Shown here: one piece after another, positions 52,684 to 54,300 of the stretch
Layout: each line of letters opens with the position of its first letter
Numbering within the stretch: position 1 is the first letter of the stretch
NCBI GenBank assembly: GCA_964016885.1
Contig: CAXHJY010000789.1
Location: 1 to 61,414 of the forward strand
DNA: 61,414 nt
Direction: 5' to 3'
Origin: Eledone cirrhosa
Taxonomy: Eukaryota
Notes under the pieces: model-generated
What the model saw: only the letters and a program-made list of their open reading frames with translations
The model's database searches: none
Told to the model about the DNA's origin: nothing
Translations under genes and position numbers: made by a program

Positions 52684-53265
52684 TATAGACATACACGCCG
52701 CCAATTTCACACGCGTCAAAACGTACGATTTTCAATACTGTCTTTGCAAAATTACCTGTAGAATGAACCTAACCGTTACTGAAACTATTTCGTCCAATTA
52801 TTCCCATTTAGAAATCTTCCTCCGATACCTCTACTTGTTATTCCGTACCATATTTCTTTGATAGATGAAATTTCTATAGAATTTACCGATGAAGCTAGTC
52901 AAAGACACATTTCCGAAGAAGCAGCAGGCTTTTACGATTGAATTTATACAAACACATACAATAGACTAAGCATTTGTTTCAAACGAGGAGATTTTCGTTT
53001 GGCTGATTCCTTCAGACGGAACATTTGAAGAGATGTCTTTATAACAGAGATTCTGTTTGGAATGCAACACTTTCAAAATATCAACAGCTAACGTTTAAAA
53101 ATTGTTTTTGTTATTCAAATTAACTTCAACTAGATTCTAGCCTGATCTCAAGTGTCTATGTCAAGCTACACTCATCTCTCCTCTATCTACCATGTTCATA
53201 TTAATAGTATATATATACATATATATATATATATAAGAACAAAAGATGGTTAAAAGAGTTCCATG

Positions 53266-53336
53266 TATGTTATTATGCGCATTTCAAAAACAAATATCAT
53301 CATGCAATAATATTTGTGTTTTCATCAGATAAAACA
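53266..53336 (-). ncRNA. Type-I hammerhead ribozyme
   Basis: Minus strand tgttttat-CTGATGA-aaacacaaatattattgcatgatgatatttgttttt-GAAA-tgcgca-TA-ataacata. Lies inside fold-back 53234-53449. Confidence 0.85.
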
Positions 53337-53539
53337 GGAAGACATGATATGAAGGTTAAAAAACACTTGTGGATAGTTCAGTTTTAAATCAACATTGAAA
53401 TGCGCATAATAAAATACATGGAACTCTTTTAACCATCTTTTGTTCTTATATATTATGTATACTCCAGTCCTACAAACTGTAGAGTGCTTCTTATCCGATA
53501 TCTGCATTGCTTTATTGTACTACAATAAAACTCACCTCC

Positions 53540-53583
<44 letters not shown>

Positions 53584-53678
53584 TATATATTATATCCTCG
53601 GTTCAATCGGGTGCAACCACAATAAGTAAGGTACTCAATACATTTGTATAGTGTAAACATTAAATTTAATATAGAAAT

Positions 53679-53734
53679 GGCTTCAGATGCTGATGATTTC
53701 TTTCGAATGAAACAGTTCTAGTCCTGTAGAAGCC
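53679..53734 (+). ncRNA. Hammerhead-like motif in fold-back (family E)
   Basis: ggcttc-agatg-CTGATGA-tttctttcgaat-GAAA-cagttctagtcctg-TA-gaagcc. Stem II is weak; decayed relatives on both strands at 54096-54269. Confidence 0.5.
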
Positions 53735-53774
53735 ATTTCTATATTAAATTAAACCCGAGACTCACACACACACA

Positions 53775-53825
<51 letters not shown>

Positions 53826-53913
53826 TTCAAAATATAAATATATAACTATTCAAACAGAACTCAAAACACCAAGTTCTTGTTTTGAATATGTCATATCTGT
53901 AAAACAACTTTTG

Positions 53914-53975
53914 TATTTTATCTGATGAGAGCGTACCAAAAATGTTGGTACCCTTGAAATATATGTAATAAAATA
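53914..53975 (+). ncRNA. Type-I hammerhead ribozyme
   Basis: tattttat-CTGATGA-gagcgtaccaa aaatg ttggtaccctt-GAAA-tatatg-TA-ataaaata. 8-bp stem I and 10/11-bp stem II. Confidence 0.88.
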
Positions 53976-54300
53976 AATATGGTTTTATAAAGATAGTTTC
54001 CATTTAATATTATATATATATATATACACGAGTCCCGGCTCCAATCGAGGGTAACCACAGTAAGTAAGGTACTCAATACATTAGTGTAAACATGAAATTT
54101 AATATAGAAATGACTTCTACGGGTCTAGAATTGTTTCATTCGAAATAAATCACCAGGACAACCAACTGCCATTGTAATACCAACTTATTAAAATGAGAAT
54201 TGGCTTTCCTGATTATTTATTTCGAATGAAAGAGTTCTAGACCTTTAGAAGCCATGTCTCTATTAAATTGGACAAACACACACACACCCATATATATATA

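What the first reader, a model, noticed from the sequence alone, without database searches (positions are those of the whole stretch)
53234..54000. Best candidates for active ribozymes: two hammerheads with intact cores 600 bp apart
53266-53336 (minus) and 53914-53975 (plus) have intact cores, 8-bp stem I (perfect in the latter) and long stem II. Relatives at 58621 and 58436 share stem I (tattttat/ataaaata) but have different stem II sequences that still largely pair, which suggests selection on structure.
Basis: partly seen in the sequence, partly recalled or inferred. Interest (0 to 1): 0.75.

Follow-up and report, generated by a model that had tools for sequence, protein, structure and literature searches.

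The report
Ordinary Penelope retrotransposon hammerhead copies
These two predicted self-cutting RNA motifs are real but ordinary: they are short end-pieces of a known kind of jumping gene, two of about 34,000 such motifs in this genome, and they likely cut only when two copies pair, so these slightly damaged copies are not special candidates for activity.

Summary
Both type I hammerhead cores are there, and the cut after A53967 is right. They are separate insertions, on opposite strands, of two subfamilies of one Hydra-clade Penelope-like retrotransposon. One tight pattern finds 34,107 such cores genome-wide (control 0). The minus-strand motif is 93-97% identical to the terminal repeats of full-length elements; one has an intact 797-aa RT plus GIY-YIG frame with Hydra motifs. 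Stem II covaries across subfamilies (109 of 119 cells paired; 0 of 5000 shuffles reach this), so selection on structure holds for the lineage. Inserted copies show no significant core protection (0.65% versus 1.0% changes, p=0.28). 'Best candidates' is not supported. Helix III is a 2-bp palindrome of the dimer-dependent type, the two palindromes differ, each copy has a private stem change, and the minus copy is predicted to be sequestered by its inverted neighbour. No excess of copies starts at the cut site, so uncut RNA was copied. Short copies tend to start at an initiator-like YCA and end at two fixed sites. Cleavage and expression are untested. The scan has reported this system on other DNA of this genome.

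The parts
53221..53395 (-). Solo pseudo-LTR (pLTR) of Hydra-clade Penelope-like element, subfamily A; starts 2 nt after the common YCA start site, ends at the first 3' end site in (TA)n
   Evidence: 93-97% identical over 174-176 nt to both pLTRs of full-length elements L143, L148, L152; end sites
53266..53336 (-). Type I hammerhead A: stem I 7/8, long stem II with C.U at pair 4, 2-bp helix III in palindrome AUGCGCAU, predicted cut after A53274
53395..53543 (+). Inverted 5'-truncated partner copy of subfamily A: 3' half of the hammerhead only (no CUGAUGA) plus the 83-nt tail, ending in (TA)n
   Evidence: 97-99% identical to L143, L148, L152; predicted to pair with the 3' half of hammerhead A as a long hairpin
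53845..54012 (+). Solo pLTR of subfamily B, starting at the modal 5' site, between (TA)n tracts; no tail
   Evidence: 94.7% identical to the pLTR of L101, which has endonuclease remnants upstream; 5 of 9 further loci have a B-type pLTR downstream of Hydra-type RT/EN pieces in the same orientation; modal start
53914..53975 (+). Type I hammerhead B: stem I 8/8, stem II with C.C at pair 4, helix III segment AUAUAUGU (family AUAUAUAU), GUA triplet, predicted cut after A53967
58313..58562 (-). Solo pLTR with tail, subfamily C; hammerhead at 58436-58500 with a private stem II change
   Evidence: full-length tandem relative L154
58575..58710 (-). Solo pLTR piece, subfamily D; hammerhead at 58621-58689 with a 1-nt stem II deletion
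   Evidence: longer relatives L103, L104 carry RT and EN upstream
58710..58772 (+). Inverted partial copy of subfamily D (5' half of the hammerhead, no helix III)

Best explanation
The two motifs are hammerhead ribozymes inside short solo terminal repeats (pLTRs) left by two subfamilies of a Hydra-clade Penelope-like retrotransposon, inserted separately into (TA)n; they likely cut only as a pair of like copies or with help from the element's protein, and are predicted to be silent at this locus. Shown: the family membership, the tandem pLTR-ORF-pLTR parents, the two fixed 3' ends, the inverted partners, the modal 5' start, and read-through of the cut site. Inferred: the element's RNA starts at an initiator-like YCA about 62-74 nt before stem I. 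The RT-endonuclease nicks (TA)n and starts copying at one of two internal sites behind the ribozyme. It runs through the uncut ribozyme to the RNA's 5' end, or further into an ORF copy, and often adds an inverted second piece. The palindromic 2-bp helix III would keep a single ribozyme off and allow cutting when two like pLTRs meet, as in a tandem transcript, to trim long precursor RNA.
For: Full-length tandems with hammerheads 3334-3940 bp apart flank RT+EN (L143, L148, L152 for A; L154 for C). L152 has an intact 797-aa frame, and 50 of 57 listed relatives at 93-100% have no stop inside. [quoted passage not shown] 34,107 cores, control 0. Among 49 A copies in a position-picked sample, 22 end at +114/115 and 22 at +196-199; 40 of 49 are followed by TA repeats; of 26 short copies, 19 start within -68..-60 and 22 have an inverted piece upstream. 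Two internal RT starts and a protein-assisted hammerhead not needed for insertion are reported for Poseidon_Ac (PMC11167929). Helix III is self-complementary in 201 of 213 copies. Read-through: counts of 8724, 8204 and 7421. Of the 11 of the first 100 copies failing the 5 nt before the cut, 10 are point mutants and 1 starts at the cut, against 3 starting within the next 5 nt.
Against: No cleavage or expression data: no RNA run was listed. ViennaRNA ignores tertiary contacts, and the extended stem I seen by eye might stabilise a monomer; most invertebrate retrozyme hammerheads cut efficiently alone (PMC7229834 passage). Core changes in copies are lower than elsewhere (8/1232 versus 103/10348); this is not significant, but the test is weak. 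No intact parent was found for subfamily B (longest open frame 547 aa among 150 listed; 4 of 9 loci lacked a downstream B pLTR). Pfam did not recognise the RT and gave GIY-YIG only at E=0.019 for a subfamily D piece. The inter-copy helix for B is weak (-3.2 kcal/mol), so dimer cutting may be poor there. 23 of 49 A copies extend more than 120 nt upstream, so the 5' start is a hot spot, not a rule. A TATA box at the expected distance was seen by eye only in a fifth subfamily.
Confidence: 0.85

Rival explanations
1. The ribozymes work as monomers, stabilised by a tertiary contact between the extended stem I and the C.Y-containing stem II, so the B copy at 53914 would cut any host transcript that crosses it.
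For: B has a perfect 8-bp stem I, a GUA triplet and stem II paired at 0.9-1.0. C.Y sits at stem II pair 4 in 14 of 17 clusters, and a distal stem I extension differs in a paired way between B and C (by eye).
Against: Helix III pairing probability is about 0 and the active monomer share is 1e-4. Single PLE hammerheads showed no or low cleavage (PMC4209133; PMC11167929). There is no excess of genomic copies starting at the cut (subfamily A only).
Confidence: 0.12
2. The short copies are a self-propagating non-autonomous family (SINE-like or retrozyme-like) transcribed from their own internal promoter and moved by the Hydra enzyme, rather than one-off by-products of full-length elements.
For: Fixed 5' and 3' ends and high copy number. 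D. virilis Penelope has an internal promoter (PMC2377424 passages). Retrozymes are proposed to derive from pLTRs (bioRxiv 10.64898/2026.07.22.740005, part 1).
Against: No head-to-tail arrays at these loci, apart from a short 5' duplication in L098. The short copies are 93-99% identical to pLTRs of autonomous elements. I did not test for variants private to short copies. This rival is compatible with the main reading on all other points.
Confidence: 0.2
3. This locus has been domesticated: the two hammerheads act together on a host transcript.
For: Proximity only (577 nt).
Against: Opposite strands and different palindromes. About one such core occurs per 88 kb, with clustering in (TA)n, and three copies of an unrelated hammerhead-like family lie in the same 1.1 kb. 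Both copies carry private changes.
Confidence: 0.02

Closest known systems
Hydra clade of C-terminal EN+ Penelope-like elements, including Hydra-1_Obim (Craig et al. 2021, PMC8557442; section 11, passages and supplement search hits seen)
   Same: Single RT plus C-terminal GIY-YIG frame; DKT, CxCx5C linker, no CCHH, CxxC and CxH; (TA)n targets; hammerhead in the terminal repeat; inverted truncated partner and one-sided tail.
   Different: Different families from Hydra-1_Obim, whose listed hammerhead has a 7-bp stem II and a 4-bp helix III. Here the elements are 3.3-3.9 kb rather than under 3 kb, the motif reads RWI rather than RWK, the tail is 83 nt rather than 30-40, and copies run to tens of thousands.
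[quoted passage not shown]
   Same: Type I motif in both flanking repeats, long helix II, small palindromic helix III, mostly solo or opposite-strand copies, many sequence families per genome.
   Different: Stem I is 8 bp or more rather than 4-5; there is no bulged base before stem II; the first stem II pair is mostly A-U or G-U rather than G-C; a C.Y mismatch is fixed at pair 4.
Poseidon_Ac of Anolis (Frangieh et al. 2024, PMC11167929; parts 1-2 of 4 read)
   Same: Two fixed 3' ends separated by a tail; AT-rich targets; uncut RNA appears to be the template.
   Different: Another clade. There the ORF starts inside the hammerhead; here it starts about 280 nt behind it. Protein-assisted cutting was shown there and is untested here.
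Metazoan non-LTR retrozymes (PMC7229834, passages; bioRxiv 10.64898/2026.07.22.740005, part 1 of 5)
   Same: Short AT-rich repeats with type I hammerheads; dimer-dependent cutting where helix III is weak.
   Different: Retrozymes are head-to-tail arrays giving circular RNA. These are solo or head-to-head pieces of a coding element.

Membership tests
Type I hammerhead ribozyme | Core CUGANGA, GAAA, UH with three helices, stem I open | tested here: met
   covariation
Type I hammerhead ribozyme | Match to an Rfam hammerhead model | tested here: not met
   0 at gathering score; none among 150 of 163 rows shown at E<=10. The stem lengths are atypical, so this lowers model membership only.
Type I hammerhead ribozyme | Mg2+-dependent self-cleavage after N17 | not testable with these tools
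   needs an in vitro assay; no RNA run listed
EN+ Penelope-like element | Hammerhead-bearing pLTRs flanking one RT plus GIY-YIG frame in tandem | tested here: met
   L143, L148, L152 (A), L154 (C); B only through decayed copies
EN+ Penelope-like element | Inverted 5'-truncated partner and one-sided tail | tested here: met
   22 of 26 short A copies have an inverted piece; 3' ends 22 and 22 of 49 at two sites; window 53395-53543
Hydra clade | DKT in place of DKG; CxCx5C linker; no CCHH; CxxC and CxH near the C end | tested here: met
   against section 11
Hydra clade | RWK motif; N-terminal GxKF/Y not conserved | tested here: inconclusive
   reads RLRWI; no GxKF/Y found
Hydra clade | Insertion into (TA)n | tested here: met
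   40 of 49 copies; both window elements
Hydra clade | Groups with Hydra in an RT tree | not tested
   reference proteins were seen only in the paper's supplement and compared by eye
Non-LTR retrozyme | Head-to-tail array of hammerhead units | tested here: not met
   no such array at 53.2-54.0 kb; relatives are solo or head-to-head
Non-LTR retrozyme | Circular RNA from the unit | not testable with these tools
   no RNA run listed
Naiad PLE | N-terminal endonuclease | tested here: not met
   endonuclease is C-terminal

The most novel reading that the evidence does not exclude
The short copies record one whole reverse-transcription step: each runs from an internal RT start back to the RNA's first base at an initiator, straight through an uncut ribozyme. 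The palindromic helix III and the fixed C.Y mismatch would be a two-copy switch that keeps the ribozyme off while the RNA is a template, and the 260-nt solo units could be a self-spreading SINE-like parasite. With many intact 797-aa frames, this is a ready natural system for asking what Penelope hammerheads are for.
Probability: 0.35. Interest if true: 0.55.

Novelty: new member of a known kind. Interest (0 to 1): 0.24.

Why it matters
The locus itself matters little. The family is of some use: the role of hammerheads in Penelope-like elements is still open (PMC8557442 passage), and this genome holds a young, very abundant Hydra family with many intact frames and several ribozyme variants whose stem II covaries. 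Its copy ends give a cheap test of where the RNA starts and whether cutting is needed for transposition. I found no paper testing a Hydra-clade hammerhead or describing these subfamilies in six searches of the held library; subscription papers and Repbase were not searchable.

Tried and rejected
Rfam: no hammerhead match; the hits were hairpin and TA-repeat noise. The repeat finder was swamped by microsatellites. The AT-rich stretch upstream of long B copies was read with the invertebrate mitochondrial code as a possible NUMT; all six frames held stops, and it proved to be the element's 3' UTR. A pattern for long A copies returned 0 with control 0 and is uninformative; long copies were found by fetching paired hits instead. 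Pfam and PDB did not identify the RT. The protein search gave 49 mostly unnamed relatives at 30-40% identity. RNA evidence: no RNA holder listed. Contigs of four runs of unknown kind cover the pLTR, but their depth is no copy number and was not used. No Hydra-type frame lies in the window. The first neutral-decay runs were faulty (crashed at that step; one search counted B and C copies twice); one search is the corrected one, leaving out 25 loci that were repeat fetches or segmental duplicates, 10 of 122 copies under 90% identity, and 2 variable columns per family. The 5' ends of BLAST-picked A copies are biased by the query, so one search is used for A. I first took the protein for Neptune or Nematis from memory and dropped that after reading the Hydra definition. 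A twister-like reading of the tail was considered from recalled consensus and dropped without a test. R-scape was not available; the shuffle control ignores relatedness, and its 17 clusters include one unrelated family and 6 single copies.

Full report
Observation. A descriptor scan of both strands finds the two motifs at the stated places, with complete cores and N17 at 53274 (minus) and A53967 (plus). Stem I pairs 7 of 8 in the first (call it A) and 8 of 8 in the second (B). The scan finds 4 cores in the window against a mean of 0.05 in 100 shuffles. The relatives at 58436 (C) and 58621 (D) are real; D has a 1-nt deletion in stem II. Rfam does not recognise them. In all four, helix III is two base pairs closed by a palindrome.

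Copy number. The genome is 3.0 Gb and rich in TA repeats; a cephalopod is my inference, and earlier scan notes say the same. DNA searches with each motif returned their best-scored candidates at about 92-99% identity on many contigs (only 40 candidates scored in each). One pattern fixing the core, the inner stem I and an alternating helix III matches 17,125 + 16,982 = 34,107 places, and the reversed control 0. That is one per 88 kb and a floor.

What carries them. [quoted passage not shown] Tandems with a hammerhead on each side of the frame exist for A (L143, L148, L152; 3940, 3334 and 3709 bp) and C (L154; 3676 bp). L152 has an unbroken 797-aa frame, and 50 of 57 listed relatives have no stop inside. 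The window's A element (53221-53395) is 93-97% identical to these pLTRs, and its neighbour 53395-53543 is 97-99% identical. B (53845-54012) is 94.7% identical to the pLTR of L101. Five of 9 further loci carry a B-type pLTR downstream of RT/EN remnants in the same orientation, but no intact B parent was found. [quoted passage not shown] The supplement lists Hydra-1_Obim with (TA)n targets and a different hammerhead, so the clade is known from octopus and these are other families. No tree was built.

Insertion anatomy. In the loci fetched around the first 100 pattern hits on contig C1, 49 of 100 copies are subfamily A. Of these, 22 end at +114/115, 22 at +196-199, 3 continue into the ORF and 2 end elsewhere; 40 are followed by TA repeats. 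Of 26 short copies, 19 start within -68..-60 (10 exactly at the A of a YCA) and 22 have an inverted piece just upstream. B, C and D also peak at a YCA: 7 of 37 at -72, 7 of 36 at -75..-72, and 6 of 26 at -64..-60. Two fixed 3' ends match the two internal RT starts shown for Poseidon_Ac (PMC11167929). An initiator-like TCACT in a pLTR was noted in Adineta (PMC3846280 passage) and an internal promoter in D. virilis Penelope (PMC2377424 passages). That the YCA is the RNA start here is inference; a TATA box about 31 nt upstream is visible by eye only in a fifth subfamily. The window's A locus is a typical head-to-head insertion with the tail on one side; B is a solo copy without tail.

Selection on structure. 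213 complete cores from all loci then held fall into 17 stem II clusters. With one real variant per cluster, 109 of 119 cells at pairs 1-3 and 5-8 are paired; the shuffle mean is 88.4, 0 of 5000 shuffles reach 109, and slid registers give 55-68. Pairs 1, 2, 3, 5, 6 and 8 show two-sided changes. Pair 4 is C.C or C.U in 14 of 17 clusters. This control ignores relatedness, and the set includes one unrelated family and 6 single copies. Helix III is self-complementary in 201 of 213 copies (174 strictly). The inner stem I is invariant, partly by my choice of pattern. Among 112 BLAST-picked copies, core positions changed in 8 of 1232 cells and other positions in 103 of 10,348 (p=0.28), and dead cores occur. 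Selection therefore shaped the master elements; it is not detectable after insertion, although the test is weak.

Are these two good candidates for activity? They lie on opposite strands facing apart and have different palindromes, so they cannot form a dimer with each other. ViennaRNA gives the active monomer fold a share of 2e-7 (A) and 1e-4 (B); with the inverted neighbour in the transcript, A falls to 7e-25. The inter-copy helix III is -10.5 kcal/mol for A and -3.2 for B. A has a private mismatch in stem I (65 of 84 copies share the commonest, paired 3' strand), and B's G16.2 is in 1 of 32 copies. Against this reading, the model has no tertiary contacts, and B's stems I and II are good. 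Published PLE hammerheads cut poorly alone and weakly as dimers (PMC4209133), or only with the element's protein.

Was cut RNA copied? For A, exact patterns beginning 5 nt after the cut, at the cut, and 5 nt before it count 8724, 8204 and 7421: losses of 6.0% and 9.5%. I fetched all 11 of the first 100 hits that fail the upstream 5 nt. Ten are point mutants of a continuous element and one starts at the cut; among 4 controls, 3 start within the next 5 nt. There is no peak at the cut site, so the templates were almost all uncut, as reported for Poseidon_Ac. This was tested for A only.

Mechanism and rivals. Most likely (0.85), these are by-products of Hydra-type target-primed reverse transcription, carrying a latent, pair-dependent ribozyme that may trim tandem precursor RNA and is predicted to be silent here. 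Rivals are monomer activity through tertiary contacts (0.12), self-propagating short units (0.2, compatible with the rest) and domestication (0.02). Expression could not be examined: no RNA run was listed.

Novelty. These are new families of a known clade, with a known ribozyme class in its known place. Earlier notes of this scan describe the same system on other DNA of this genome, including the C.Y mismatch, the Hydra assignment, the two end sites and an RNA-start reading of fixed 5' ends; none lay near this window or matched by sequence. I had reached those points before reading, which led me to the supplement entry. These notes are not independent support. Supplements of the other papers were not read and may hold closer hammerhead variants. 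Hammerhead numbering and the initiator consensus are recalled. Interest 0.24.

Noticed in passing
window 53690-53733(+), about 54096-54170(-), about 54205-54255(+): Three broken copies of a second hammerhead-like family. By eye it has a U.U pair at the base of a 3-bp stem II, a 4-bp helix III and a covarying stem I, so intact copies might work as monomers. An exact core pattern has 19,868 hits, control 0. The window copies have lost the 5' stem I strand or a core base. Its parent element was not traced, and I did not test whether it is the 'scrambled' family of earlier notes.
   Followed up: partly
window 4225-4287(+): Complete hammerhead core with a 4-bp helix III and a weak stem II, related to the second family; the predicted fold is not the hammerhead.
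   Followed up: partly
L002 flank (G000:C768, near 33.3 kb) and one more locus: Another hammerhead family with a GC-rich stem I, a bulged C before a G-C stem II pair and an AUAUAUAU palindrome, closer to the published PLE consensus.
   Followed up: no
window 53456-53543(+) and 58313-58400(-): The tails of subfamilies A-D share a small motif and two predicted hairpins behind the two 3' end sites, seen by eye; earlier notes propose these as RT start signals.
   Followed up: no
window 58990-59220: A second partial inverted pair of subfamily D, a local duplicate of 58660-58772 embedded in TA-rich repeats.
   Followed up: no
window 51623-51811: A near-perfect inverted repeat of about 190 bp that draws many miRNA-model hits below gathering score; probably another inverted insertion.
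   Followed up: no
L005-L009, L023-L025 (G000:C4, 203.8-233.5 Mb): Eight loci share more than 1.4 kb of flank at 98-99.9% identity, a recent segmental duplication carrying a B copy.
   Followed up: no
L106, L107, L109: Other Penelope-like families lie next to or inside these elements: a more distant Hydra-like RT (35-43% to subfamily D) and an RT with a YVDD motif.
   Followed up: no
P0008: A relative at 37% identity is named in NCBI as a GATA zinc finger domain-containing protein of Argonauta hians; it is probably a mis-annotated Hydra element.
   Followed up: no
window 12867-13153, 14834-15114, 30848-31095, 35820-36465: Several copies of a SINE-like repeat of about 140-190 bp that also recurs in many fetched loci.
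   Followed up: no
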